64,000 nt of DNA from Balneolaceae bacterium (GTDB lineage Bacteria; Bacteroidota; Rhodothermia; Balneolales; Balneolaceae). The DNA lies in NCBI GenBank assembly GCA_965247355.1, contig OZ252011.1, positions 3,113,397 through 3,177,396 of the forward strand. Direction: 5' to 3'. The notes under the pieces are model-generated. The model was given only the letters and a program-made list of their open reading frames with translations. It had not been told where the DNA came from and made no database searches. A program made the translations under genes and the position numbers. Each line of letters begins with the position of its first letter. Within the stretch, counting starts at the first letter, position 1. Below, one piece after another: positions 8,245-41,916 of the stretch.

Positions 8245-9357
8245 TTAAGACTTAAATTTAATCTCCACCTTAGGATTAGCATTCTTCCCTCTCAAAGCCA
8301 ACTGCTGCACCATATTATTGGATGCCCCGATAAAAGCAGTGGCAGCATTAGAGTGCTCATCTGCAATCACAATCGGCTTTCCGTTATCGCCGGCTTCGCG
8401 GATGGGTTGTTCAAGCGGTATTTCGGCCAATACCGGAACTGCGAGTTCCTCCGCTAGTCGGGAAGCTCCACCTTCTCCAAAAATATGGTACTTTTTGTCA
8501 GGCATATCCGGCGGGATGAAATAGGCCATATTCTCAATAACTCCAAGTACAGGGACCTTTACTTTGTTGAACATAGCCACCCCTTTGCGCACATCATCAA
8601 GAGCTACAGTCTGAGGAGTAGATACAATTACAGCGCCACTTAAAGGAACGGTTTGTACAATCGTGAGCTGGATGTCACCGGTTCCGGGTGGTAAATCTAA
8701 CACCATATAATCCAACTCTCCCCACTCCACATCGGTCATAAATTGTTTAATGGCGCTGGTAGCCATTGGCCCACGCCAAACCATCGCCTGATTTACATCC
8801 ACCAGAAAACCCATACTCACCATTTTGATGCCATACTTCTCAAGAGGAATCAACTTCTTTTGGGTAGTGATGTTAGGCCGTTCAAATAGATCGAACATTG
8901 TTGGGATACTAGGTCCGTATACGTCGGTATCCATGAGACCCACTTTCGCTCCGGTTCTTGCTAAAGCTGCGGCCAGATTTACTGCAACTGTAGACTTTCC
9001 AACCCCGCCCTTACCGGATGCTACGGCAATGATATTCTTCACACCAGGGAGAACCTGATTTTGTGCAGGCGCTTGTTGAGCCGGTTCCGGGCTTTTCGTT
9101 CTTTTGGAAATATTGATTCCAACCTGAATATCTACCACGGCATCTTTATCAATAAACTTATGGATTGCGCCTGTAGCCTTTTCCTTCAGGTCTATAGCAA
9201 GAGGTTCATTCTGTCCAGGCATTTCCAGAGTAAAGGACACATATTTATCCTGAACAAGAATATCCTGGATCATATCAAGGGAAATGAGATCCTGTTTTTC
9301 GGTTGGATGAAGAACGTGAGCTAGCGCTGTTTTTACTTGTTCTTTGTTGATAGACAT
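8245..9357 (-). CDS. apbC: Mrp/NBP35-family iron-sulfur cluster carrier ATPase
   Basis: 370 aa. It has an N-terminal MIP18/DUF59-like segment, the deviant Walker A VASGKGGVGKSTVAVNLA, the DLPPGTGD switch, and VLGVIENM. Confidence 0.9.
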   Translation of the reverse strand: MSINKEQVKTALAHVLHPTEKQDLISLDMIQDILVQDKYVSFTLEMPGQNEPLAIDLKEKATGAIHKFIDKDAVVDIQVGINISKRTKSPEPAQQAPAQNQVLPGVKNIIAVASGKGGVGKSTVAVNLAAALARTGAKVGLMDTDVYGPSIPTMFDLFERPNITTQKKLIPLEKYGIKMVSMGFLVDVNQAMVWRGPMATSAIKQFMTDVEWGELDYMVLDLPPGTGDIQLTIVQTVPLSGAVIVSTPQTVALDDVRKGVAMFNKVKVPVLGVIENMAYFIPPDMPDKKYHIFGEGGASRLAEELAVPVLAEIPLEQPIREAGDNGKPIVIADEHSNAATAFIGASNNMVQQLALRGKNANPKVEIKFKS

Positions 9358-9416
9358 GGAGAAACTTTGATTCTGTAATTAATTTCATTTAAAGATAAGG
9401 AGATTAAATCCCCAAA

Positions 9417-10052
9417 TCATTTTATAGAATGAGCTTTCTTCCCGGGCTCCGCATAACTAAACCGATCCAGAATTTTTGGCAAGGCATAACCATCTAAACC
9501 AGTTGCTGATACAGTATTGGCTTCTTCGAGGTTAAGCCAGCCGTCTTCACTTTGAATAGATTCACTGATGTAGATGTGCTCGATATTCGCAATGATGAAA
9601 ATACACTGGTTCTCTTTCAGGTAATACTCGTTTTCATAACTGCAGCCTAATTTGATGTGGCTTTCCTTCACAAACGGAGCTTTAAAGTCATTCAGATATT
9701 CTTCCGTTAAGCCGGCTTCAGAAAACTCAGAAACATCTGGGTCATATTTAGCTGAGGTTTGATGTGCGTGTTGAATGATATCCTTATTCACATGATTTAC
9801 AGTGAATACACCCGACTTCTTCAAATTATCATAGGTATTTCGGGTTACCGTTCTGGGGCGAAGTACAAACCCTAACAATGGAGGATTACTCCCTAAATGA
9901 GTGACCGAGCTGAAAATAGCCAGATTGGTGGTGCCTTCTTCTGAAACAGTTCCAATCAAATTAGAGGACTTATAGCCTGTAACGCTGTTTATAAAATGTG
10001 CCCGATATCTTGATGATAGTTCATTCAGGTCTTCTTTTGAATAGTATTTCAT
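9417..10052 (-). CDS. Flavin reductase-like (FMN-binding split-barrel) protein
   Basis: 211 aa. FINSVTGYKSSNLIGT...NLAIFSSVTHLGSNPPLLGFVLRP resembles the flavin reductase domain family. Confidence 0.65.
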   Translation of the reverse strand: MKYYSKEDLNELSSRYRAHFINSVTGYKSSNLIGTVSEEGTTNLAIFSSVTHLGSNPPLLGFVLRPRTVTRNTYDNLKKSGVFTVNHVNKDIIQHAHQTSAKYDPDVSEFSEAGLTEEYLNDFKAPFVKESHIKLGCSYENEYYLKENQCIFIIANIEHIYISESIQSEDGWLNLEEANTVSATGLDGYALPKILDRFSYAEPGKKAHSIK

Positions 10053-10156
10053 AGGTAATTGAATCGTTTTGCTTCTCCAAACTCAAACAAAGCTCAATTC
10101 ATTCTCCAAAAATCACTAACTTCGCGCATCTGAAACTGCTGACGGAACACAACTAC

Positions 10157-11257
10157 ATGCTTAATAAAACTCCATTCCATTCCATCCATGAAAAGCTGGG
10201 TGGTAAATTGGTCGACTTTGCCGGGTTCGAGATGCCGGTACAATATAAAGGGATAAAAACGGAACACGCTGCCGTTCGTGAAGCGGTCGGTGTTTTCGAC
10301 GTATCTCACATGGGAGAATTTTGTATAAGCGGACCAGAAGCGCTCGAACTTATTCAAAAAGTGACAGTCAACGATGTTTCTAAACTAGTATCAGGAAAAG
10401 CACAGTACTCCTGCATGTGTTATGAAGATGGCGGTATTGTTGACGACCTGATTGTGTACAAGCTGTATGAAGAAAATCAGTACATCCTGGTTGTTAACGC
10501 ATCCAATATTAATAAAGATTTAGCCTGGATTAATCAGAATAATACCTTTGATGTGGAAGTACATGATAACTCTCCGGACACCGCATTGCTTGCTGTGCAA
10601 GGTCCTAAATCGGTAGAAACACTTCAAAAGCTTACGGATCTGGATTTAAGCAGTATCGGATTTTATAGTTTTAAAATGGGCTCATTAGCGGGAATGGATA
10701 ACATTGTTTTTTCAGCAACGGGCTACACTGGCGAAAAAGGTTTTGAGTTATATTTTGATAAGAATCATGTGGACCCGGAAGCAGTTTGGGATGCAATTTT
10801 TAAAGCCGGCGAAGAATTTGGTATCGAAGCATGTGGACTTGGAGCCCGCGATACCTTACGTTTAGAGATGGGGTACGCACTGTATGGCAACGACATCACC
10901 AAAGAAACTCATCCACTGGAAGCACGTTTAGGATGGATTACTAAATTTGATAAAGATGATTTTGTGGGTAAAGAGGTACTTCTCAAAAAGAAAGAAGCAG
11001 GAATTGCTCGACAATTAGTAGGTTTTGTGTTGGATGACCAGCGCTCAATCCCAAGAAACGGGTACCAGATTATGAATGAAGACGGGGAACATATCGGGGA
11101 AGTTACCAGCGGAACAATGTCCATAACTTTAGGTAAAGGAATAGGGATGGGATATGTGGAGAAAGCCTATGCGGCTGAAGGCTCTGCAATTAATATCGCT
11201 ATTCGTAAAAAAACTGCGGCGGCTGTTGTATCGAAACCGCCCTTCATAAAGAAATAA
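10157..11257 (+). CDS. gcvT: Glycine cleavage system aminomethyltransferase T
   Basis: 366 aa. TPFHSIHEKLGGKLVDFAGFEMPVQY, VGVFDVSHMGEF, LAVQGPKS and TGYTGEKGFEL are hallmark GcvT segments. Confidence 0.92.
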   Translation: MLNKTPFHSIHEKLGGKLVDFAGFEMPVQYKGIKTEHAAVREAVGVFDVSHMGEFCISGPEALELIQKVTVNDVSKLVSGKAQYSCMCYEDGGIVDDLIVYKLYEENQYILVVNASNINKDLAWINQNNTFDVEVHDNSPDTALLAVQGPKSVETLQKLTDLDLSSIGFYSFKMGSLAGMDNIVFSATGYTGEKGFELYFDKNHVDPEAVWDAIFKAGEEFGIEACGLGARDTLRLEMGYALYGNDITKETHPLEARLGWITKFDKDDFVGKEVLLKKKEAGIARQLVGFVLDDQRSIPRNGYQIMNEDGEHIGEVTSGTMSITLGKGIGMGYVEKAYAAEGSAINIAIRKKTAAAVVSKPPFIKK

Positions 11258-11267
11258 AGAGAGTTTA

Positions 11268-12005
11268 ATGCCGGATTTAAGTTACATAGATGTTTTCTTT
11301 TCAGTGCAGGCTTACCAGGAGGAAGACCTTCGCGGAAAGAGTGCTGTGATTATCGATATTTTAAGAGCTTCTTCAAGTATCGTTACCGCTGTGCATAATG
11401 GTGCAAAGAAAGTGATCCCCGTTGAGGATATGAGTGATGCTATGAAAATCGCCCGAACTATGGATCAAAATGACTTTCTTCTTTGTGGGGAAAAAGATGG
11501 GGTGAAGATTGAGGGTTACCATTTAGGGAATTCACCTCAGGAATACACCAAAGAAACGGTAGGTGATAAAACGTTGATCATCAATACTACCAATGGTACG
11601 AAAGCAATAAAAAAAGCGAATCTGGCAAACCGAATTTATATCGGTTCATTTTTGAATCAGAAAAGTATTCTTGACGCCCTTGCAGAACATGATGACGAAG
11701 TAGTTCTGATTTGCTCAGGCTGGCGTGGACGTCTTGCGCTGGAAGACACAATGTTTGCAGGTTCTTTGATTCACAAATTGTGTAATGGTAACCTGCCGGA
11801 TAAAACCAAAGACGGCGCTAAAGTAGCATTTGGTTTGTACGAAAAATTTGGGGATGCTTTGGAAGAGACTATCCAAAAAAGTGATCATGCGTATCGCCTG
11901 CGAAATCTGGTACCCGAAGACGATGTGCCTTTTTGCTGTCAGGTCGATAAATTTGACGTACTACCGGGAATGAAAGACGGAATTATTACCAACTTAAATG
12001 GCTAA
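11268..12005 (+). CDS. comB: 2-phosphosulfolactate phosphatase
   Basis: 245 aa. VIIDILRASSSIVTAVHNGAKKVIPV ... LCGEKDGVKIEGYHLGNSP ... TTNGTKAI match the ComB family pattern. Confidence 0.8.
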   Translation: MPDLSYIDVFFSVQAYQEEDLRGKSAVIIDILRASSSIVTAVHNGAKKVIPVEDMSDAMKIARTMDQNDFLLCGEKDGVKIEGYHLGNSPQEYTKETVGDKTLIINTTNGTKAIKKANLANRIYIGSFLNQKSILDALAEHDDEVVLICSGWRGRLALEDTMFAGSLIHKLCNGNLPDKTKDGAKVAFGLYEKFGDALEETIQKSDHAYRLRNLVPEDDVPFCCQVDKFDVLPGMKDGIITNLNG

Positions 12006-14544
12006 GAAGAAACTTAATACAGCAGGAGCACCAAAAGGACTGGATTCTAACCGTAAGGTTGAGATCGTTGGGATTATTGTAATTGCCATTGCCATACTGC
12101 TGGGATTGAGTATTCTTTCTTATACCCCTGAAGATTATCAATACGCACGAAGTCTGGCGTTTTCGGATCTTTTTAACCCGGACGCCAATTCCCGTCTGGT
12201 GCAAAACTGGCTGGGTCCTGTTGGGGCATATATTTCTCATTTTTTAGTGTACACCCTGTTTGGCTACACGAGTTTTCTTCTGGCTGTTCTGATTGGATAT
12301 AACGGCTGGCATGTATTTCGTCGTCGACCATTTAATGATAATGGCTGGCTGAATATCCTCTCTGTTTGGGGGATGATTCTCCTTTCTACCTTCATTGGCT
12401 GGCTAAACCAAAATGCTGATTTCCCTGATGATTCTGTATGGAGCGGTGCTGCCGGGGTTGCGATTTCAAGAGTGCTCCAAAATATTACGGGTATTGGTTC
12501 CATCTTTATTCTTTCGGTATTGATGCTGGTTACCCTACTGTTATTTTGGGATCGTGATCTTCAAAAAACCATCGATAATGTGAAAATCTGGATGGATAAT
12601 ATGCGGGAGAAAATGGAAGAGTCCCGTATCGCCAGAGAGGAAAAGAAGGCACAACGTATCGCAGAACGGGAAGAACGAATCGCTGAAAAGAAAGCGGAGC
12701 TGGCACTCAAGAAGGAAGAAAAGGAATCCGAGCAAGCAGAGAAAGAACGAAATGCTAAAATCAAAAAGCGCCAGATAGCGGAGGCAAAAACCAAAGAAGA
12801 AGCGGTTAAGCCAAAGCCAAGTATCGATGAGATTGTAGAGAAATCAGAGGAAGAAGACAGAAAGCGAATCGAAGAAGAAAGGGCTGTGGTTAAGACATTG
12901 GATACACGTCAACGTGCAGTACTGGAGAAGAAGGAAGAGATTTCGGAAGATGAGGCTGAAGACGATGTAGAAGTTGCCATTTATAAAGGCGAAGGTGATG
13001 AAGAGGCCGGTGAAAAGGATCTGGATAAAATCAACGAAGACAAGGCGAAGGAAGTCCCGGTCATCAAGTATAAATTCCCAACTATTGATCTGCTTACCTC
13101 TCCTCCAAACGAAGGAAATGAAGTTGACCTGGAGGAAATCAAAGAAAACAAGCGCATTATTCTTGACAAACTGAAGCGCCACAAAATTGAGATTGTGGGC
13201 ATCAATGCTATTGTTGGACCAACGGTTACATTGTATGAACTGGAACCGGCTCCGGATGTGAAAATCAGTAAGATTGAGAGTTACTCCAATGACTTGAAGA
13301 TGGCAACGGCTTCGAAAGGATTGCGGATGCTCTCTCCTATTCCGGGGAAATCTGCAGTTGGGATTGAAGTACCAAACAGTACACGGGAAACGGTTTATAT
13401 CAAACAGGTCATCAATACTAAGAAGTTTGTAGAAACCAATATGGTACTTCCGGTGGCATTTGGTAAGACCATTGAGAATGAAGTGTTTATGCTCGATCTC
13501 ACCAAGATGCCTCACTTGCTGGTAGCCGGAGCAACAGGTTCAGGTAAATCAGTTGGGATAAATACCATCATCACCTGTCTGTTATACAAATGTCACCCGG
13601 ATGATCTCAAGTTTGTGATGATTGATCCCAAGAAAATCGAACTATCACTCTATCGAAATATCCAGAATCATTTTCTGGCGATGTTACCCGATGCCGATGA
13701 ACCTATCATAACCGATACATCTAAGGCACTCGATACGCTGAATAGTGTGTGTAAAGAAATGGATGATCGATATGATCTTCTCAAAATGGCTATGGTACGG
13801 GACATTAAAGCATATAATGCCAAATTTAAAGACGGAGAACTGGAAGACGATTTGGGTCACCGTCATCTCCCTTACATTGTTGTAATCATCGATGAGTTGG
13901 CTGATTTGATGATGACGGCAGGAAAACAAATTGAAGAGCCAATAGCACGTATTGCTCAACTGGCACGAGCGGTTGGAATCCATATGGTAGTGGCAACTCA
14001 GCGACCTTCAGTAAACGTAATTACGGGTACCATCAAAGCAAACTTCCCGGCACGTGCAGCCTATCAGGTAGCATCTAAAGTAGATTCCAGAACTATTCTG
14101 GATCAGGGTGGAGCGGATCAGTTGGTAGGAATGGGTGATATGCTATTCACGAATGGTGCTGGTATGACCCGAATCCAAAATGCTTTTGTTTCTACCGAAG
14201 AAGTGGAATCCATAAACGCATTTATTGGTCAGCAGGCAGGATACAAAGAGCCATTTCACTTGCCAATTATTCAGGAAGATAATACCGGCATCCCCGATCC
14301 GTTAGAAGACATAGACGAAATGTTTGAAGCAGCAGCCAAAGTGGTGATACTTCATCAACAAGGTTCGGTTTCCCTCCTTCAGCGAAAACTGAAAATCGGA
14401 TATAACCGGGCTGGAAGAATTATAGATCAATTATTTAATGCAGGGATTGTTGGACCATATCAAGGGAGTACCGCACGAGATGTACTTATTCAGGAAGAGG
14501 ATGAACTACAGGAGATTCTGGATGGGCTTAAAGACCTCAATTAA
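11998..14544 (+). CDS. ftsK: DNA translocase FtsK
   Basis: 848 aa. It has N-terminal TM helices, a long charged linker, a motor domain with Walker A GATGSGKSV and Walker B VVIIDELADL, and a gamma winged-helix (SVSLLQRKLKIGYNRAGRIIDQL). It overlaps the comB stop by 8 nt. Confidence 0.92.
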   Translation: MAKKKLNTAGAPKGLDSNRKVEIVGIIVIAIAILLGLSILSYTPEDYQYARSLAFSDLFNPDANSRLVQNWLGPVGAYISHFLVYTLFGYTSFLLAVLIGYNGWHVFRRRPFNDNGWLNILSVWGMILLSTFIGWLNQNADFPDDSVWSGAAGVAISRVLQNITGIGSIFILSVLMLVTLLLFWDRDLQKTIDNVKIWMDNMREKMEESRIAREEKKAQRIAEREERIAEKKAELALKKEEKESEQAEKERNAKIKKRQIAEAKTKEEAVKPKPSIDEIVEKSEEEDRKRIEEERAVVKTLDTRQRAVLEKKEEISEDEAEDDVEVAIYKGEGDEEAGEKDLDKINEDKAKEVPVIKYKFPTIDLLTSPPNEGNEVDLEEIKENKRIILDKLKRHKIEIVGINAIVGPTVTLYELEPAPDVKISKIESYSNDLKMATASKGLRMLSPIPGKSAVGIEVPNSTRETVYIKQVINTKKFVETNMVLPVAFGKTIENEVFMLDLTKMPHLLVAGATGSGKSVGINTIITCLLYKCHPDDLKFVMIDPKKIELSLYRNIQNHFLAMLPDADEPIITDTSKALDTLNSVCKEMDDRYDLLKMAMVRDIKAYNAKFKDGELEDDLGHRHLPYIVVIIDELADLMMTAGKQIEEPIARIAQLARAVGIHMVVATQRPSVNVITGTIKANFPARAAYQVASKVDSRTILDQGGADQLVGMGDMLFTNGAGMTRIQNAFVSTEEVESINAFIGQQAGYKEPFHLPIIQEDNTGIPDPLEDIDEMFEAAAKVVILHQQGSVSLLQRKLKIGYNRAGRIIDQLFNAGIVGPYQGSTARDVLIQEEDELQEILDGLKDLN

Positions 14545-36553: not shown

Positions 36554-36955
36554 ATGAGTTTTCCTACAAACTGGCTAATTGCCACTAATGGAAGTAAATT
36601 TGCAAGCGAAGCGGTTAAACACGCTGGCTTATTAAGTGCAGAGTTAACTAATAAGCCAAAAGTAACCATTCTGGTTATTGCTACTGAAAAAGAGACCGAA
36701 GATATTGCTTTAGGTATTGTAGAAATGGCCAAGTTTCTTTTTGAAGAAGAAGGTGGTAAACAAGTTGAGCCAAGACTGGAAGTAAGAATCGGGCAACCGG
36801 GACCTACCATTGTTGAAACAGCTAAGGAATTAGGGTGTGATCATATTCTTATTGGGGGTGCCGACTTCAAATGGGATATTCATGATGACTCACCAGGAGG
36901 AGTGAGTAATTACATAATAGCGCGCTTTGATGGCGTTATTACGGTAGTTAAATAA
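36554..36955 (+). CDS. Universal stress protein (UspA family)
   Basis: 133 aa. WLIATNGSKFASEAVKHA... and the C-terminal DHILIGGADF...GGVSNYIIARFDGVITVV fit the Usp fold pattern. Confidence 0.75.
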   Translation: MSFPTNWLIATNGSKFASEAVKHAGLLSAELTNKPKVTILVIATEKETEDIALGIVEMAKFLFEEEGGKQVEPRLEVRIGQPGPTIVETAKELGCDHILIGGADFKWDIHDDSPGGVSNYIIARFDGVITVVK

Positions 36956-37155
36956 GTTTTTTGACCAGGTATTTTTCTGACCCCATTAATAACCGTTTGA
37001 AAAAAGCTAATCTATAGGTTTAAAGGGTTCTCGTACCTTTTTGACTGAATAAAAACTTTACTTTAAAAGCTAAAAAAACAGAATAATTAGAAAATCTAAC
37101 TGCTATTAGCGACACATTATTAGTAAATTTTAATGTTAATTTTTTCTAATAAATA

Positions 37156-37632
37156 ATGCGTTGGGTAGCTCAGATGAAAACTAAAGTAGAACTTACTGCA
37201 TCAGTCCTTATGGTCATTTTGTTTTTTGTAACAACATCTGGCTTGAACTCTGATGCCAACTCTTCCCTGAATGAGCGACTCACTTATGATATTCAGAACA
37301 AGGCAGAAACAGGATACAGCATTATTAAAGCTGAATTAAGTAATCTTCAAGAACTGATATCAGTAGAGGCTTCAAGGCTTATTTTTAAAAACACTCAGGG
37401 AGAGGTTCTTACTATTTATAAGGATGAAACAGGATTAGCTGTAATGAAGGAAAGTACGGGAATAGCTAATATGCTTTCGCTTCAACTGGAAGAATTAAAG
37501 TTCGAGCTTACCTCTGATCAGAAAGCCATTAAAGTAAATCTTTCTACTGAAAGATCAATTATTCATTCATCAGGTGATAAAGTAGAATACTCCGGATTTA
37601 CTACAGGAACTATTAAACTTCCGAAGAGTTAG
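37156..37632 (+). CDS. Hypothetical membrane-anchored protein
   Basis: 158-aa ORF with one N-terminal hydrophobic helix (LTASVLMVILFFVTT). I recognise no family. It is preceded by a 200-bp AT-rich spacer. Confidence 0.45.
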   Translation: MRWVAQMKTKVELTASVLMVILFFVTTSGLNSDANSSLNERLTYDIQNKAETGYSIIKAELSNLQELISVEASRLIFKNTQGEVLTIYKDETGLAVMKESTGIANMLSLQLEELKFELTSDQKAIKVNLSTERSIIHSSGDKVEYSGFTTGTIKLPKS

Positions 37633-37790
37633 TCGATTTCTACAATGGAATGATCTCCTACATCAATTTTTCCTTTCACGTTTTTTATTGAGGTATTAGC
37701 CCCAATAGTAGACCCAGAAGTTTCAACATCTACAAGAGAGGCATCCAAAGTACCAGCCGCTCCAAGAGTAAAGAATTTTTTACGATCCAT
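37629..37790 (-). pseudogene. Chimeric 53-codon remnant ORF: a Tat-signal-like start fused to a duplicated nucleotidyltransferase C-terminus
   Basis: Hand translation gives MDRKKFFTLGAAGTLD|ASLVDVETSGSTIGANTSIKNVKGKIDVGDHSIVEID*. The part after the bar is encoded by the 96-bp repeat copy and matches the C-terminus of the 39094..40107 gene. It falls below the 60-aa ORF-track cutoff. Confidence 0.6.
37649..37744. repeat. Left copy of a 96-bp direct repeat
   Basis: aatgatctcctacAtcaatttttcctttcacgttttttattgaggtattagccccaatagtagacccagaagtttcaacatctacaagagaggcat is identical to 39123-39218 except at 37662 (A versus G). Confidence 0.95.
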
Positions 37791-37805
37791 TATTTAAAAA
37801 AAACT

Positions 37806-39110
37806 TTATTCATTATAAATAATAGGAATATATTCCCAAATATCCATCGCACGATCGTCATTCGAATGGCTAATAAAAGTTGAACCTACCCCAACAAATA
37901 TTCGCCCATCAATTACACCTGCATTCATGTGAACGCGCCCTGTACCGGGGTATTCCGTATTAATTTTTCCCCAAGTTTCACTTAAAGGATTAAAATGCCA
38001 AAAATCGTTTAAATAAATATCAGGTTGATGTCGTTCAAATTTAGCACCTCCTAAAACATAGCCTGAAATTTTCGTTTGAAAAAAAACAGATTCCGTTCTC
38101 TCGTCCCCAGGAAAATCTTCTAATGTACTCCATATATTAGTACTTGAATCATACTTCCAAATATCTTTGAAAGATTCTCTATCATTGAACCCAAGACCAA
38201 CATATCCAAAACCGTTAAAAGAAAAAGCAACTTTACCATTTAAACCAAGGCCAGGGTAATCTGCTTTTCTGGTCCATAAATCATTTGCAGAATCATATTC
38301 CCACATAACTCTTGACTCATCTACAGTCCCACCTCCCGTTACATAAGCTTTATCTCCAATAACAAACACAGTGGATTTGTCCCTGGGTGACCCTGGAAAA
38401 TCCATCATCTTAGACCAACTATTACTCGCGGGGTCATATCTCCATAAATCATTAAAATAATTTATACTACAAAGTCCAGAACCGGTACAATTTGACCCAA
38501 GTCCTACATATCCGTACCCATTAATTGTAAAAGAAATAGAATTAATACGAGCGCTTGATGGGAGGTTAGCTATAAGATCCCAAGAGTCTGAGAGCAGGTA
38601 ATATTTATAGAAAATATTAGTGTAATCCCTACCGACTCCTGAGCCGACATAAAGAGTATCATTTATTACAAAAGCTGCAGCTCCAGCTAAAATCCCATTT
38701 TCAAAATCAGATTTTTGTATCCAGAAATTTTCAGGTAATGTTTTTGTAGAAATTTCTTCTCCATAAATAACTTCATTATCCGCGGTTTTGATGTATGAAT
38801 TGAAATAATAAGTAGTATTTGGTTCAAGCGTCTGAACTCTACTTTCAAATTGATTTTCAACAGAAATAACACCAAGAGAAATAGAAGAATTGCTAATCGT
38901 AGGATCTGCAGTTTCAGACCAAACAAAACCATGGTCAACTATTTGTGTACCACCAATCTTGAGTATCTCCGCCTTAATATCTATGTAGTTAGCATAGGTA
39001 TTAAATATTTCAAGTGTAATAACACTAGGTTCATTATTACTTGAGCCATCACATGAATTAATAAAGAAAATTAGTAGAACTATAAAGATAAATCTATCCA
39101 TTTCGATCAA
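37806..39110 (-). CDS. Kelch-repeat beta-propeller lipoprotein with an N-terminal Ig/FN3-like domain
   Basis: 434 aa with lipobox LIFFINSC. It has repeated Kelch-like blades (xxGYVGLG, NDLWRYDPxxNSW, KDIWKYDSSTNIW, NDFWHFNPLSETW, MDIWEY). Two 100-nt hand counts gave about 36% GC. Confidence 0.75.
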   Translation of the reverse strand: MIEMDRFIFIVLLIFFINSCDGSSNNEPSVITLEIFNTYANYIDIKAEILKIGGTQIVDHGFVWSETADPTISNSSISLGVISVENQFESRVQTLEPNTTYYFNSYIKTADNEVIYGEEISTKTLPENFWIQKSDFENGILAGAAAFVINDTLYVGSGVGRDYTNIFYKYYLLSDSWDLIANLPSSARINSISFTINGYGYVGLGSNCTGSGLCSINYFNDLWRYDPASNSWSKMMDFPGSPRDKSTVFVIGDKAYVTGGGTVDESRVMWEYDSANDLWTRKADYPGLGLNGKVAFSFNGFGYVGLGFNDRESFKDIWKYDSSTNIWSTLEDFPGDERTESVFFQTKISGYVLGGAKFERHQPDIYLNDFWHFNPLSETWGKINTEYPGTGRVHMNAGVIDGRIFVGVGSTFISHSNDDRAMDIWEYIPIIYNE

Positions 39111-40107
39111 TATTTAGTCTCGAATGATCTCCTACGTCAATTTTTCCTTTCACGTTTTTTATTGAGGTATTAGCCCCAATAGTAGACCCAGAAGTTTCAA
39201 CATCTACAAGAGAGGCATGATCTCTAATTATAGTGTTCTCTATTTTTGAGTTATTGATACTTGTGCCAGCTTCGATACTTACTTTAGGTCCAATAGTACT
39301 GTTCTCAATAACTACATCATCAGCAATAAATACCGGTGGGATGATAGTGGATCCGGGATATTTTGAAGTATCGAAACTATGGTTTTCTTTGGTAATGATC
39401 TCTCCTGTTGTTTCCAGCCATGCTGGGAGCGTTCCACAATCAAGCCATTCATCAACAGTAGCTATTTTGAACACTTTACCCTCGTTGATCATATTATCGA
39501 GAGCTTCTGTTAAGAAATATTCACCGCCAGGACCTTTGATATCTTCATCAATTACCCGGTTAACCTGCCGTTTTAGCTCCTGTCCATCTTTAAAATAATA
39601 GACCCCGATAATGGCAAGATCTGATATAAATTCCTGAGGCTTTTCGACAAATCCGGTAATAGTTTCTCCTTCATGAACAGCTACTCCAAAACGGGAAGGG
39701 TCTTCAACACGCTTTAACCAGATTACACTATCAGCGCCTTCAATATTAAATTTTTCTTTACTATCGAAAAGAGTGTCAGCAAAAGCAACGATAACTTCGC
39801 CATCCAGATCTTCACTGGCACAAGCCACAGCATGAGCTGTTCCAAGAGCAGGAAACTGAACTCTGAAGGTAGCTTTGGCATTATGCCGTTCACTCATTTC
39901 AGAAAGCTGGTCTTTAATGTCCTGACCGAAATCAGGTCCTAAGATGTATACAATTTCATCAATCTTACGGTCTAGTGTTCGAATGAAGGTTTCAACAAGC
40001 CGTTCAATAATCATGGTACCAGCAACAGGAAGCAGGGGCTTAGGAACAGTATGTGAATGAGGACGAACACGGGTACCGCGACCCGCCATTGGGATAATTA
40101 ATTTCAT
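39094..40107 (-). CDS. Sugar-phosphate nucleotidyltransferase with a C-terminal left-handed beta-helix (hexapeptide) domain
   Basis: 337 aa. The N-terminus is MKLIIPMAGRGTRVRPHSHTVPKPLLPV (the G-x-G-T-R nucleotidyltransferase signature). The C-terminal hexapeptide repeats are VVIENSTIGPKVSIEAGTSINNSKIENTIIRDHASLVDVE.... The last 17 nt overlap the Kelch gene start. Confidence 0.8.
   Translation of the reverse strand: MKLIIPMAGRGTRVRPHSHTVPKPLLPVAGTMIIERLVETFIRTLDRKIDEIVYILGPDFGQDIKDQLSEMSERHNAKATFRVQFPALGTAHAVACASEDLDGEVIVAFADTLFDSKEKFNIEGADSVIWLKRVEDPSRFGVAVHEGETITGFVEKPQEFISDLAIIGVYYFKDGQELKRQVNRVIDEDIKGPGGEYFLTEALDNMINEGKVFKIATVDEWLDCGTLPAWLETTGEIITKENHSFDTSKYPGSTIIPPVFIADDVVIENSTIGPKVSIEAGTSINNSKIENTIIRDHASLVDVETSGSTIGANTSIKNVKGKIDVGDHSRLNIDRNG
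39123..39218. repeat. Right copy of the 96-bp direct repeat (inside the 3' end of the nucleotidyltransferase gene)
   Basis: Same 96 bp as 37649-37744, offset 1474 bp, with one mismatch at 39136. Confidence 0.95.
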
Positions 40108-40230: not shown

Positions 40231-41916
40231 TTGTATTATACAATACTAGACGCACTTTCAATTGTATTCTGCCTGATATTCATACGGTTTTACTGGTATA
40301 GAATCCGGTTTTTTTTGCATGTATTCCAACAGGTAGGTTATAAGCAAAACGAATACTGGCACTGGCTGAGAGATAATTGGGAACGAAAAGTTATACCTGC
40401 AGACCTTGCTATATTTAATATATTTCTATTTGGTCTGGTGGTCGGTTTGGAATGGTTAGACATTGAAATTACTAACTCATCCAAGGCTGTAATTCTGTTT
40501 CTGCTTTCGTTTTTTTGGTTTGGTTCGGTAAAAAAATACAAATCAGAAAAAGTAAAAAAACCACTGGTGTTTACCTCAAGGATGAAACGCCTGACGATCC
40601 CGGTTGCACTAATTGCGTTATTTATACCAACTTATTTTAGTGTTTGGACATATAGTGGACTTCTTCCGTTTTTCTGGGTTTCAGTTCCAACATACGATCC
40701 GGGTCTTCTTTCTTTCGACGTCATTTTATTAGTTTTTGGATGGATATTTGGAGCGCTACTTCTTCCCTTCTTCATCTTTATTGGTAGTTCTATTACAAAA
40801 CCCATTGAAAGAAGTATCCAAAATGGATTCAAAAAGCAGGCCAGGGAAAAACTAGCTTCCATGCCCCACTTGAAAGTCATTGCTTTAACAGGAAGCTATG
40901 GTAAAACGAGTACCAAGTTTATGGTTCGGGATTTATTGAAGGAGCGTTATAGCGTATGCTCAACTCCGGGAAGCTACAATACTCCAATGGGTATTTGTAA
41001 AGTGATCAATAATGATCTCCAATCTCATCATCAGATTTTAATTCTGGAAATGGGTGCCCGTTATCCAGGGAATATTCAGGAACTTTGTGATATCGCCCGT
41101 CCTGATATTTCAATAGTTACGAATGTGGGTGTGGCTCATCTTGAAACCTTTGGTTCACAGGATGTAATTGCCAGAGAAAAAGGAAGATTGGTAGATAATC
41201 TTGAATCAGGTGGGGTAGCTATACTCAATGCTGATGATCCACGTGTTTCTAAAATGGGGGAGAACCGGACTGATATAAAACGTATCCTTGTAGGATTAAA
41301 TGAGGGAAGTATTACTGCCGGGGATATTACATACGATACTTCCGGTTCTAATTTTGAGATTAGTTTCAAAGAGGAAAAACAGTCTATTCAAACCCAAATA
41401 CTTGGTGCTCATAATGTGCAGAATATGCTTTTGGCTATTGGAGCAGCCCATCACCTGGGAATCAGACCAAAAACGATGGCGATAGCAGCAAAGAATATCG
41501 AGCCGGTGGAACACCGATTAGAACTAAAAAAGCAAGGTGAGCTTTTTATAATTGATGACGCTTTTAACTCCAATCCGGTTGGGGCAAAAAATGCGGTGGA
41601 AATATTAGGTCAGTTTAAATCAGGAAATCGGGTCATTATTACGCCCGGAATGATAGAACTGGGTGATATTGAATACGAAGAAAATAAAGACTTCGGTAGA
41701 GCCATTGGCAACGCGAAACTCGACTTAGTAATTTTGGTTGGCGAAGAGCGGGCAAAACCTATTCAGGAAGGAATAGAAGAGGCGGCTGAATCAACTCAAA
41801 ATGTGAAAGTAGTAAATAGTTTGTTTGAAGCTAATGACTTGGTAAGAGAATACGCGAAGCCGGGGGATGTTATCTTGTATGAGAACGATCTTCCGGATGT
41901 ATATAATGAACAGTAG
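40231..41916 (+). CDS. MurF-type Mur ligase with an N-terminal polytopic membrane domain replacing the usual N-domain
   Basis: 561 aa with a TTG start as given in the track, so the start is uncertain. Residues 1-200 contain 5-6 hydrophobic helices. After that come VIALTGSYGKTSTK (P-loop), DISIVTNVGVAHLE, LGAHNVQN, HRLE and DDAFNSNPVGAKNAVE, as in UDP-MurNAc-tripeptide--D-Ala-D-Ala ligases. Confidence 0.75.
   Translation: MYYTILDALSIVFCLIFIRFYWYRIRFFLHVFQQVGYKQNEYWHWLRDNWERKVIPADLAIFNIFLFGLVVGLEWLDIEITNSSKAVILFLLSFFWFGSVKKYKSEKVKKPLVFTSRMKRLTIPVALIALFIPTYFSVWTYSGLLPFFWVSVPTYDPGLLSFDVILLVFGWIFGALLLPFFIFIGSSITKPIERSIQNGFKKQAREKLASMPHLKVIALTGSYGKTSTKFMVRDLLKERYSVCSTPGSYNTPMGICKVINNDLQSHHQILILEMGARYPGNIQELCDIARPDISIVTNVGVAHLETFGSQDVIAREKGRLVDNLESGGVAILNADDPRVSKMGENRTDIKRILVGLNEGSITAGDITYDTSGSNFEISFKEEKQSIQTQILGAHNVQNMLLAIGAAHHLGIRPKTMAIAAKNIEPVEHRLELKKQGELFIIDDAFNSNPVGAKNAVEILGQFKSGNRVIITPGMIELGDIEYEENKDFGRAIGNAKLDLVILVGEERAKPIQEGIEEAAESTQNVKVVNSLFEANDLVREYAKPGDVILYENDLPDVYNEQ

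What the first reader, a model, noticed from the sequence alone, without database searches (positions are those of the whole stretch)
37649..39218. A 96-bp near-perfect direct repeat brackets an AT-richer Kelch lipoprotein gene inserted into the 3' end of a nucleotidyltransferase gene
Seen directly: 37649-37744 and 39123-39218 are identical over 96 bp. The single exception is A at 37662 versus G at 39136, which is synonymous in the coding frame (GAT/GAC). The offset is 1474 bp. The right copy is the true 3' end of the nucleotidyltransferase/LbH gene and encodes ASLVDVETSGSTIGANTSIKNVKGKIDVGDHS. The left copy is orphaned. The only complete gene between them is the Kelch lipoprotein gene (37806..39110). 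Its first 17 nt overlap the new end of the enzyme gene. My hand counts on 100-nt samples gave about 36% GC inside the Kelch gene and about 44% in the enzyme gene. Inference: a recent insertion duplicated about 100 bp of target and changed the enzyme C-terminus. The left copy preserves the presumed original ending ...DHSIVEID*, whereas the enzyme gene now ends ...DHSRLNIDRNG*. No integrase, transposase, IS ends or tRNA are visible. The mechanism could be a Campbell-type single crossover on a short homology, or a duplication-associated capture, rather than a classical mobile element.
Basis: partly seen in the sequence, partly recalled or inferred. Interest (0 to 1): 0.65.

Follow-up and report, generated by a model that had tools for sequence, protein, structure and literature searches.

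The report
Recombination scar flanking a captured Kelch gene
The 97-bp direct repeat is real, but it is a recombination scar rather than a mobile-element footprint: a piece of another version of this variable Balneolaceae locus, carrying a Kelch lipoprotein gene, was spliced into the 3' end of a conserved sugar-nucleotidyltransferase gene through one homologous junction and one microhomology junction.

Summary
The repeat is confirmed. Copies 37648-37744 and 39122-39218 match at 96 of 97 positions, 1474 bp apart, and it is the only repeat of 40 nt or more in the window. An independent metagenome scaffold (L081, 99.25% identical) shows the same enzyme-repeat-Kelch-repeat order. The organism is a Balneolaceae bacterium.

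The left copy and its IVEID* tail are the original enzyme 3' end. They run collinearly into the convergent 158-aa gene in an empty-site scaffold from the same sample (L083) and in two other species (L082, L003).

The left copy is not simply orphaned. It is fused in frame to the first 16 codons of a Tat-signal sugar-phosphate isomerase gene ("geneX"). In the closest geneX-bearing relatives this gene sits downstream of the enzyme, behind a variable secreted-protein gene. The fusion point falls in up to 10 nt shared by geneX and the enzyme (TGCCTCTCTT). The new tail RLNID is itself a family-type enzyme C-terminus.

The 1474-bp insert therefore came from another version of the same hypervariable enzyme|Usp locus. 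It entered by homology-facilitated illegitimate recombination, or equivalently by circularisation followed by a single crossover. No transposase, integrase, inverted repeats or tRNA are present.

This is a known kind of event with a clear natural example. Interest is modest.

The parts
39122..39218 (-). Right repeat copy. It is the in-service 3' part of the enzyme gene (codons about 297-329, ASLVD...GDHS).
   Evidence: In L081 the differences from the window in this copy are 1 nonsynonymous and 1 synonymous; across the enzyme gene they are 1 nonsynonymous and 5 synonymous.
37648..37744 (-). Left repeat copy. It is the displaced original 3' end of the enzyme gene and now forms codons 16-48 of a chimeric 53-aa ORF.
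   Evidence: It is collinear with the enzyme 3' ends of L083, L082 and L003.
37629..37647 (-). Tail A: the third base of the Ser codon, then IVEID and the stop codon. This is the ancestral enzyme C-terminus. Its stop overlaps the stop of the convergent 158-aa gene.
39094..39121 (-). Tail B: RLNIDRNG and the stop codon. It is an alternative, family-like enzyme C-terminus that came in with the Kelch gene. Its stop overlaps the Kelch ATG (ATGGATAG).
   Evidence: It matches enzyme tails of other species at up to 11 of 15 nt, for example GDHSALNID in L035.
37806..39101 (-). Kelch lipoprotein gene (431 aa). The protein has a signal helix, invariant Cys17, an N-terminal beta-sandwich and a six-bladed Kelch propeller.
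   Evidence: Pfam and NCBIfam hits. AlphaFold model with pLDDT 92.5 and PDB Kelch-domain matches. The only relatives above 44% identity among 5.8 billion proteins are itself and the L081 copy.
37745..37790 (-). geneX stub: the first 46 nt (about 15.3 codons) of the 16-codon stub MDRKKFFTLGAAGTL(D/G) of a Tat-like-signal sugar-phosphate isomerase/epimerase gene. Codon 16 is completed by 37744-37743, inside the junction zone. The rest of the gene is gone.
   Evidence: The L081 version matches L001 geneX at 19 of 19 aa. The stub matches the L001 and L087 geneX starts at 47-48 of 57 nt. Full-length geneX is an AP_endonuc_2 protein.
37734..37744 (-). Junction zone. geneX and the enzyme share TGCCTCTCTT here (codons G/H-A-S-L), giving a microhomology of up to 10 nt. 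Position 37744 is enzyme-type in the window and geneX-type in L081.
   Evidence: GASL is native to several geneX homologues.
37629..37790 (-). Chimeric 53-aa ORF made of the geneX 5' end and the enzyme 3' end. It is probably a pseudogene.
   Evidence: Both differences between the window and L081 in this ORF are nonsynonymous. It has no Pfam match.
37156..37632 (+). Convergent 158-aa gene of unknown function. It is the native neighbour of the enzyme gene in the empty-site arrangement.
39094..40107 (-). Sugar-phosphate nucleotidyltransferase + LbH gene (337 aa). It is a conserved core gene and forms the right border of a hypervariable slot.

Best explanation
The locus between the conserved nucleotidyltransferase gene and the Usp gene is a gene-content hotspot in Balneolaceae. 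The window's lineage originally had the 'E' version: an enzyme ending ...GDHSIVEID*, convergent with a 158-aa gene.

DNA from a 'geneX-type' version of the same locus was then recombined in. That version had an enzyme ending ...GDHSRLNID..., followed by the Kelch lipoprotein gene and then geneX. One junction used homology in the enzyme's 3' end. The other was an illegitimate joint at a microhomology of up to 10 nt (TGCCTCTCTT) between codons 16-19 of geneX and codons 296-299 of the enzyme.

Two routes give the same product. One is homology-facilitated illegitimate recombination (HFIR) of a linear fragment. The other is microhomology circularisation of a 1474-bp piece followed by a single (Campbell) crossover in the 97-bp homology.

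The outcome has five features:
- The enzyme keeps a full reading frame with a new, equally family-like tail.
- Kelch is placed directly behind the enzyme gene, and its start overlaps the enzyme stop.
- The old 3' end is displaced downstream as a 97-bp direct repeat.
- That displaced end is fused to the geneX start as a 53-aa junk ORF.
- The repeats leave Kelch deletable by ordinary homologous recombination.

Shown directly: the repeat, the identity of each piece, the microhomology, the empty-site allele and the hotspot. Inferred: the existence of the donor allele (Kelch followed by intact geneX), the polarity of the event and the route.
For: Repeat and uniqueness.

Hotspot: the order glgB-LolE-MurF-like-enzyme-[0 to 5.3 kb variable]-Usp-CCA-ispE-glgP is conserved in about 50 species. 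Kelch is absent from all 80 species loci.

The E arrangement is native:
- L083 has CCA-Usp-158aa-tailA-repeat-enzyme, and its left flank is 98.1% identical to the window.
- L082, whose enzyme is the closest at 93% aa, has tail SVEIE and a remnant of the 158-aa gene.
- L003 is collinear with the window over 643 nt.

The stub is geneX: 19 of 19 aa and 47-48 of 57 nt match L001 and L087.

The geneX-bearing relatives sampled (90-91% enzyme identity) carry the order enzyme, variable secreted gene, geneX, then further genes, then Usp.

Tail B behaves like an orthologous enzyme tail: mean 6.9 of 15 nt identity to other species' tails, against 7.1 for tail A, with a best of 11 of 15.

The insert holds only Kelch. 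There are no inverted repeats and no tRNA.

Literature:
- HFIR junctions usually show 3-10 bp of microhomology.
- In E. coli, single crossovers of circularised molecules left 109-950 bp duplications of the homologous locus (PMC3240628).
- Displaced 3' ends downstream of an incoming module are described for V. cholerae T6SS and Rhs loci (PMC5361080).
Against: - No genome or contig with the proposed donor arrangement (Kelch followed by intact geneX, enzyme ending RLNID) was found. The Kelch protein has no relative above 44% identity other than the L081 copy, and two JGI metagenome scans found nothing.
- If the right copy came with a donor from another species it should be diverged, yet the copies match at 96 of 97 positions while the tails differ at 7 of 15. 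This requires a conspecific donor, a crossover right at the conserved GDHS codons, or later gene conversion.
- Classical HFIR usually gives insertion plus deletion, not a duplication.
- The empty-site evidence is one short-read metagenome scaffold plus a consistent k=31 graph. That scaffold also carries an unexplained patch with 18% divergence.
Confidence: 0.6

Rival explanations
1. Two-step or reversed-polarity origin. One version: a geneX-type ancestor (enzyme-tailB-Kelch-geneX) first made a microhomology-mediated tandem duplication of the 1474-bp unit, and homologous recombination with an E-type allele then replaced everything distal to the second repeat copy. The other version: a geneX-type genome was the recipient, and an E-type fragment anchored in Usp/CCA joined illegitimately at geneX codon 16.
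For: The stub::repeat junction is exactly what a tandem duplication between the two TGCCTCTCTT sites would create. The geneX-type arrangement is common in near relatives. Tandem duplications are frequent events (general knowledge).
Against: It needs two rare events in quick succession, because a 1.5-kb tandem duplication is unstable. The nearest relative by enzyme sequence (L082) and L003 both show the E-type arrangement, so the backbone was probably E-type. No tandem-duplicated form was seen.
Confidence: 0.15
2. The Kelch segment is a reversible cassette. RecA-mediated exchange between the 97-bp repeats repeatedly excises it as a 1474-bp circle and re-integrates it, so the E and K forms interconvert within a population. 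This would act as an on/off switch for a surface lipoprotein, and the empty-site scaffold would be a revertant rather than an ancestor.
For: Both forms occur in one marine sample at similar depth, about 4.6 against 4.7. A crossover in the 82 nt upstream of the SNP would give exactly the repeat sequence seen in L083.
Against: The E-form scaffold differs from the K form by an 18%-diverged patch in the enzyme gene and by its own repeat SNP. The two are therefore separate lineages, not switching clones. No joint or circle junction appeared in the laid contigs. The E arrangement exists in other species that never had Kelch.
Confidence: 0.1
3. A mobile element or site-specific integration inserted a foreign Kelch cassette and generated a long target-site duplication.
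For: Direct repeats bracket a single AT-richer gene that is absent from relatives.
Against: There is no transposase or integrase, no terminal inverted repeats and no tRNA. A length of 97 bp is far beyond known target duplications (general knowledge). Both insert ends are homologous to genes of this same locus, not to element ends.
Confidence: 0.03
4. Assembly or polishing artefact: a collapsed or mis-joined repeat.
For: k=31 contigs alone cannot tell the integrated form from an empty site plus a 1474-bp circle.
Against: An independent scaffold from another study joins the enzyme, the right copy, Kelch, the stub and the left copy, with copy-specific SNPs that phase the path. The repeat node in X1 has double depth.
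Confidence: 0.02

Closest known systems
Homology-facilitated illegitimate recombination (HFIR): de Vries & Wackernagel 2002, Prudhomme et al. 2002, Meier & Wackernagel 2003, as cited in PMC5361080 and PMC3240628
   Same: One junction lies in sequence homologous to the recipient. The other lies in a short microhomology, here up to 10 nt against the 3-10 bp reported as typical. Foreign DNA of about 1.4 kb was captured without any mobile-element function.
   Different: Experimental HFIR usually pairs the insertion with a deletion of recipient DNA. Here nothing was lost and 97 bp of the anchor ended up on both sides. Competence and the donor are unknown.
Single-crossover (Campbell-type) integration of a circularised non-replicating fragment (Amarir-Bouhram, Goin & Petit 2011, PMC3240628)
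   Same: This route produces a direct duplication of part of the homologous locus around the insert (109-950 bp in that study). The 97 bp seen here is the same signature at the short end.
   Different: The experimental events used a plasmid during conjugation in E. coli. Here the circle would have to form by a microhomology joint between geneX and the enzyme gene. No circle or plasmid backbone was seen.
Displacement of 3' ends at Rhs, CDI and T6SS effector-immunity loci ('orphan' arrays; Kirchberger et al. 2017, PMC5361080)
   Same: An incoming module with its own version of the conserved gene's 3' end takes over the reading frame. The old 3' end is pushed downstream, keeps a stretch of the conserved sequence and becomes an orphan.
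   Different: There is no toxin or immunity logic here. The conserved gene is a housekeeping-type sugar nucleotidyltransferase, only one displacement is seen, and the orphan is fused to the start of a third gene.
Chromosomal gene-content hotspots flanked by core genes (general knowledge of bacterial pangenomes)
   Same: The same pair of core genes (enzyme and Usp) brackets 0-5.3 kb of different accessory genes in different species, and no mobility genes are present.
   Different: In this case the actual junctions of one exchange are preserved at nucleotide resolution.

Membership tests
IS/transposon insertion with target-site duplication | Transposase gene within the insert | tested here: not met
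   The only complete gene in 37745-39121 is the Kelch lipoprotein (Pfam and NCBIfam).
IS/transposon insertion with target-site duplication | Terminal inverted repeats at the insert ends | tested here: not met
   The repeat finder reports no inverted repeat at the ends and none of 40 nt or more in the window.
IS/transposon insertion with target-site duplication | Short target duplication (a few bp to about 14 bp) of sequence unrelated to the element | tested here: not met
   The repeat is 97 bp. The insert ends are an enzyme-type tail and a geneX start, both homologous to genes of this locus.
Integrase-mediated genomic island | Tyrosine or serine recombinase gene and an att site, often at a tRNA | tested here: not met
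   There is no tRNA in the 64-kb window. The neighbours are conserved core genes in about 50 species. No recombinase domain was found in the six ORFs scanned at the locus.
HFIR / single-crossover capture product | One junction inside homology shared with the recipient locus | tested here: met
   The 97-bp repeat is the enzyme 3' end and ends exactly where the two tails diverge.
HFIR / single-crossover capture product | Other junction at a microhomology between otherwise unrelated sequences | tested here: met
   The geneX start and the enzyme share TGCCTCTCTT at the joint. The L001 orthologue matches 8 of these 10 nt, and GASL is native to geneX.
HFIR / single-crossover capture product | An uninterrupted recipient allele exists | tested here: met
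   Scaffold L083 and the X2 k-mer graph show 158aa gene-tailA-repeat-enzyme. This rests on a single sample and short reads.
HFIR / single-crossover capture product | An identifiable donor allele carrying the insert in its native context | tested here: not met
   No Kelch followed by intact geneX was found. Only the architecture (variable secreted gene followed by geneX) is seen in relatives.
HFIR / single-crossover capture product | A DNA uptake or transfer route (competence, conjugation) | not testable with these tools
   Only a 64-kb window is available and there is no experimental system.
Tandem duplication | Two complete head-to-tail copies of the unit | tested here: not met
   Only 97 bp is present twice. 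After the second copy come tail A and the 158-aa gene, not tail B and Kelch.
Core-gene-flanked gene-content hotspot | Same flanking core genes with different intervening genes across genomes | tested here: met
   The enzyme-to-Usp spacing ranges from 7 bp to 5.3 kb, with contents that include geneX, a GH26-like lipoprotein, a beta-lactamase-fold T9SS protein, the 158-aa gene and Kelch.

The most novel reading that the evidence does not exclude
The 97-bp repeats make the Kelch lipoprotein gene a recombinase-free, reversible cassette. RecA-dependent excision restores the original enzyme gene exactly, and the excised 1474-bp circle (or its linear form taken up by a neighbour) can re-enter any E-type genome by a single crossover. 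A scar of illegitimate recombination would then have become a self-contained vehicle for spreading a surface protein gene within a population. This would explain why the E and K alleles co-occur at about equal abundance in one marine sample.
Probability: 0.1. Interest if true: 0.55.

Novelty: new member of a known kind. Interest (0 to 1): 0.3.

Why it matters
This is a clean natural example of accessory-gene capture at a core-gene boundary without any mobile-element machinery. Both junctions are readable at base resolution. The pre-insertion allele is recoverable from the same environment. Relatives show the type of locus version the insert came from.

The case also shows how such events create chimeric junk ORFs that annotation pipelines call as proteins. 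It shows that a conserved enzyme can swap its last few codons without harm. And it shows that near-identity of repeat copies is a poor clock where gene conversion can act.

It does not reveal a new mechanism or system.

Tried and rejected
- At 80% likeness the X2 layout is swamped by other Balneolaceae. It gave one uninterpretable joint (37595 to 39269), which I did not use.
- Two scans of JGI metagenome contigs, one for the geneX-stub pattern and one for the tailA/repeat pattern, found nothing.
- No RNA runs hold the locus, so co-transcription of the enzyme gene, Kelch and the stub could not be checked.
- The sigma-70 and terminator scans gave no more hits than shuffled sequence and were ignored.
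- I looked for a closer geneX, which might mark a donor lineage, among 120 homologues. Only L001's protein shares the stub's 19 N-terminal residues, and no context contains Kelch.
- A second enzyme paralogue as an intragenomic donor was rejected. The 328-aa and 334-aa pairs in the hit list have identical C-termini on the same contigs and look like alternative start calls.
- Lower GC was rejected as proof of foreign origin. The native 158-aa gene is also low (36.1%), so the low GC marks accessory genes of this slot generally.
- Paper PMC122324 (de Vries & Wackernagel) is not held, so it is cited only through papers that cite it.
Full report
**Observation.** The window carries a direct repeat. 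Copy 37648-37744 equals copy 39122-39218 over 97 bp with one mismatch (37662 A / 39136 G), at an offset of 1474 bp. Sixteen further nucleotides on the outer side match at 9 of 16. No other direct or inverted repeat of 40 nt or more exists in the 64-kb window.

All three genes here lie on the minus strand:
- A 337-aa NTP_transferase + left-handed beta-helix enzyme, 39094..40107.
- A Kelch gene, 37806..39101. Public annotation uses the ATG, giving 431 aa (P0121).
- A 53-aa ORF, 37629..37790.

A 158-aa gene on the plus strand (37156..37632) converges on the 53-aa ORF, and their stop codons overlap. The mismatch is synonymous.

GC content is 34.7% for Kelch (2nd percentile of 1300-bp windows), 40.4% for the enzyme, which equals the window mean, and 36.1% for the 158-aa gene.

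**Not an artefact.** The species occurs in only three public runs. In X1, which holds 99% of the sampled words, the k=31 contigs break at the repeat. The collapsed 82-bp node has depth 16, against 6.8-9.8 for its neighbours.

A scaffold from a different study (L081, ENA ERZ23491154, 1998 bp) is 99.25% identical to window 39690..37693. It therefore joins the enzyme, the right copy, tail B, Kelch, the stub and 52 nt of the left copy. Each of its copies carries private SNPs (39158 and 39187; 37718 and 37744), and these phase the path.

**Who and where.** The enzyme's homologues are Balneolaceae proteins, with a best match of 93%. In 80 species loci the gene order glgB-LolE-MurF-like ligase-enzyme-[variable]-Usp-CCA-ispE-glgP is conserved. 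The stretch between the enzyme and Usp varies from 7 bp to 5.3 kb. Kelch is in none of these loci. In a collection of 5.8 billion proteins its only relatives above 44% identity are itself and the L081 copy. The slot is a gene-content hotspot.

**The left copy is the original 3' end.** Nearly all 120 homologues end GDHS plus 4-6 residues of the pattern [x][LIV][END][ILM][x], and IVEID fits this pattern.

The left copy, tail A and the 158-aa gene are collinear with three other sequences:
- L083, a scaffold from the same metagenome as L081. It reads CCA-Usp-158aa gene-tail A-repeat-enzyme, with no Kelch, and its left flank is 98.1% identical to the window.
- L082, the contig with the closest enzyme (93% aa, tail SVEIE). 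It retains the last 34 codons of the 158-aa gene next to the enzyme.
- L003, which has an intact 56%-identical homologue in the same convergent position and aligns over 643 nt.

The E arrangement is therefore vertical and older. The X2 k=31 graph agrees with this. The left-flank contig (depth 9.9) and the Kelch contig (depth 4.7) both flow into the same enzyme contig without an alternative exit. Window-like and L083-like versions of the enzyme each have depth of about 4.5.

**The ends of the insert are locus-derived.** The 16 codons in front of the left copy are MDRKKFFTLGAAGTL(D/G). They are the start of a Tat-like-signal, xylose-isomerase-like TIM-barrel gene (AP_endonuc_2), which I call geneX. 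The L081 version matches L001's geneX at 19 of 19 residues. The DNA matches L001 and L087 at 47-48 of 57 nt.

In the geneX-bearing relatives I looked up (enzyme 90-91% identical; L001, L085-L089), the order is enzyme, one variable secreted-protein gene, geneX, one more gene, then Usp. The variable gene is a 355-aa GH26-like lipoprotein, a 300-aa protein, or a 506-aa beta-lactamase-fold protein with a T9SS tail. Kelch, also a lipoprotein, sits exactly in that variable position in front of the geneX start. Its features are a signal helix, an invariant Cys17, a beta-sandwich and a six-bladed propeller, in a model with pLDDT 92.5.

At the other end, tail B (RLNID...) is as similar to other species' enzyme tails as tail A is. 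Its mean identity is 6.9 of 15 nt against 7.1 for tail A, and its best is 11 of 15. GDHSALNID occurs in L035. The insert is therefore a slice of a geneX-type version of this same locus: enzyme tail, Kelch, and the first 46 nt of geneX.

**The junctions.**
- Right junction: identity stops at the third base of the Ser codon of the conserved GDHS motif.
- Left junction: geneX natively reads ...G-A-S-L... (L081 stub GGT GCC TCT CTT) and the enzyme reads ...H-A-S-L... (CAT GCC TCT CTT). The joint therefore lies somewhere within up to 10 shared nucleotides, TGCCTCTCTT.

Position 37744 is geneX-type in L081 and enzyme-type in the window. In L081 the two copies differ at 3 or more of the 52 comparable positions, whereas in the window they differ at 1 of 97. 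I infer that the event predates the split of these two strains (0.75% divergence) and that gene conversion may have re-homogenised the copies in the window's lineage. Copy identity is therefore not a reliable age estimate.

**Mechanism.** The simplest account uses one homologous exchange in the enzyme's 3' end and one illegitimate, microhomology-mediated joint. Two routes give the same product:
- Homology-facilitated illegitimate recombination (HFIR) of a linear fragment. Its junctions typically show 3-10 bp of microhomology (PMC3240628).
- Circularisation of the 1474-bp piece at the microhomology, followed by a single crossover in the 97-bp homology. In E. coli that route was the commoner outcome and left 109-950 bp duplications of the homologous locus (PMC3240628).

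The architecture is a new module bringing its own 3' end and pushing the old one downstream as an orphan. It parallels the displacement model for T6SS effector-immunity and Rhs loci (PMC5361080).

No transposase, integrase, inverted repeat or tRNA is present.

**Consequences.** These are inferred.
- The enzyme keeps its conserved sequence through GDHS and swaps a variable tail, which is probably neutral.
- The Kelch start overlaps the enzyme stop (ATGGATAG), which suggests co-expression.
- The 53-aa ORF is a chimeric relic. Both differences between the window and L081 in it are nonsynonymous, against 1 nonsynonymous and 5 synonymous in the enzyme gene and 4 and 3 in Kelch.
- The direct repeats allow precise loss of Kelch by homologous recombination.

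**Weak points.**
- The donor allele (Kelch followed by intact geneX, with enzyme tail RLNID) has not been found.
- The contrast between 96 of 97 identity in the repeat and 8 of 15 in the adjacent tails needs one of three things: a conspecific donor whose islet edge lay at GDHS, a crossover at that motif, or later gene conversion.
- The empty-site evidence comes from one short-read sample. L083 also carries an unexplained 314-bp patch (39322-39635) that is 18% diverged from the window and only 89% identical to its best match, L082.
- I could not lay reads on L083.

**Verdict.** The 'target duplication' and the 'orphan' need replacing by recombination between two versions of a hotspot locus through a microhomology joint. 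This is a well-preserved example of a known process and not a new kind of system.

Noticed in passing
window 36955-39094, compared with loci L001-L089 (about 9000-14000 in locus coordinates): The slot between the nucleotidyltransferase gene and Usp is a gene-content hotspot across Balneolaceae, ranging from 7 bp to 5.3 kb. Recurrent occupants are geneX (a Tat-signal sugar-phosphate isomerase-like gene), various secreted or lipoprotein genes, and the 158-aa gene. No mobility genes were seen.
   Followed up: partly
L083 3001-3314 (equivalent to window 39322-39635): The empty-site scaffold has a 314-bp patch inside the enzyme gene with 57 mismatches (18%) to the window, flanked by identical sequence. 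Its best match is only 89%, to L082, another Balneolaceae in the same sample. It could be a short recombination import or strain mixing in the assembly.
   Followed up: partly
L082 1352-1453: The species with the closest enzyme (93% aa) keeps only the last 34 codons of the 158-aa gene between the enzyme and Usp. This is a decayed remnant showing that the gene was ancestral to this clade.
   Followed up: yes
window 39094-39101: The enzyme stop and the Kelch start overlap as ATGGATAG. This layout suggests translational coupling and implies that tail B and Kelch were neighbours before the capture.
   Followed up: no
window 40231-41916 (+), divergent from the enzyme gene: A 561-aa MurF-like Mur ligase with an extra N-terminal membrane region of about 200 aa is paired head-to-head with the nucleotidyltransferase in every Balneolaceae locus examined. 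The two may form a functional pair in cell-wall or sugar-nucleotide metabolism. The enzyme itself falls below every NCBIfam cut-off (RmlA-long 178 bits against a cut-off of 320).
   Followed up: no
window 37744 and 37718, compared with L081: At the base next to the homology boundary the window is enzyme-type (GAT) and L081 is geneX-type (GGT). The copies are also more alike in the window than in L081. Both points hint at gene conversion between the repeat copies.
   Followed up: partly
window about 40109 (run X1) and 37595/39269 (run X2): Two features in the laid contigs remain uninterpreted. One is a minor branch (depth 2) just upstream of the enzyme start in X1. The other is a single low-similarity contig joint in X2 that skips 1673 bp.
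   Followed up: no
window 37629-37790: The chimeric 53-aa ORF is called as a protein in public annotation (P0244, NCBI/ENA). This is an example of a recombination relic entering protein databases as a singleton family.
   Followed up: yes
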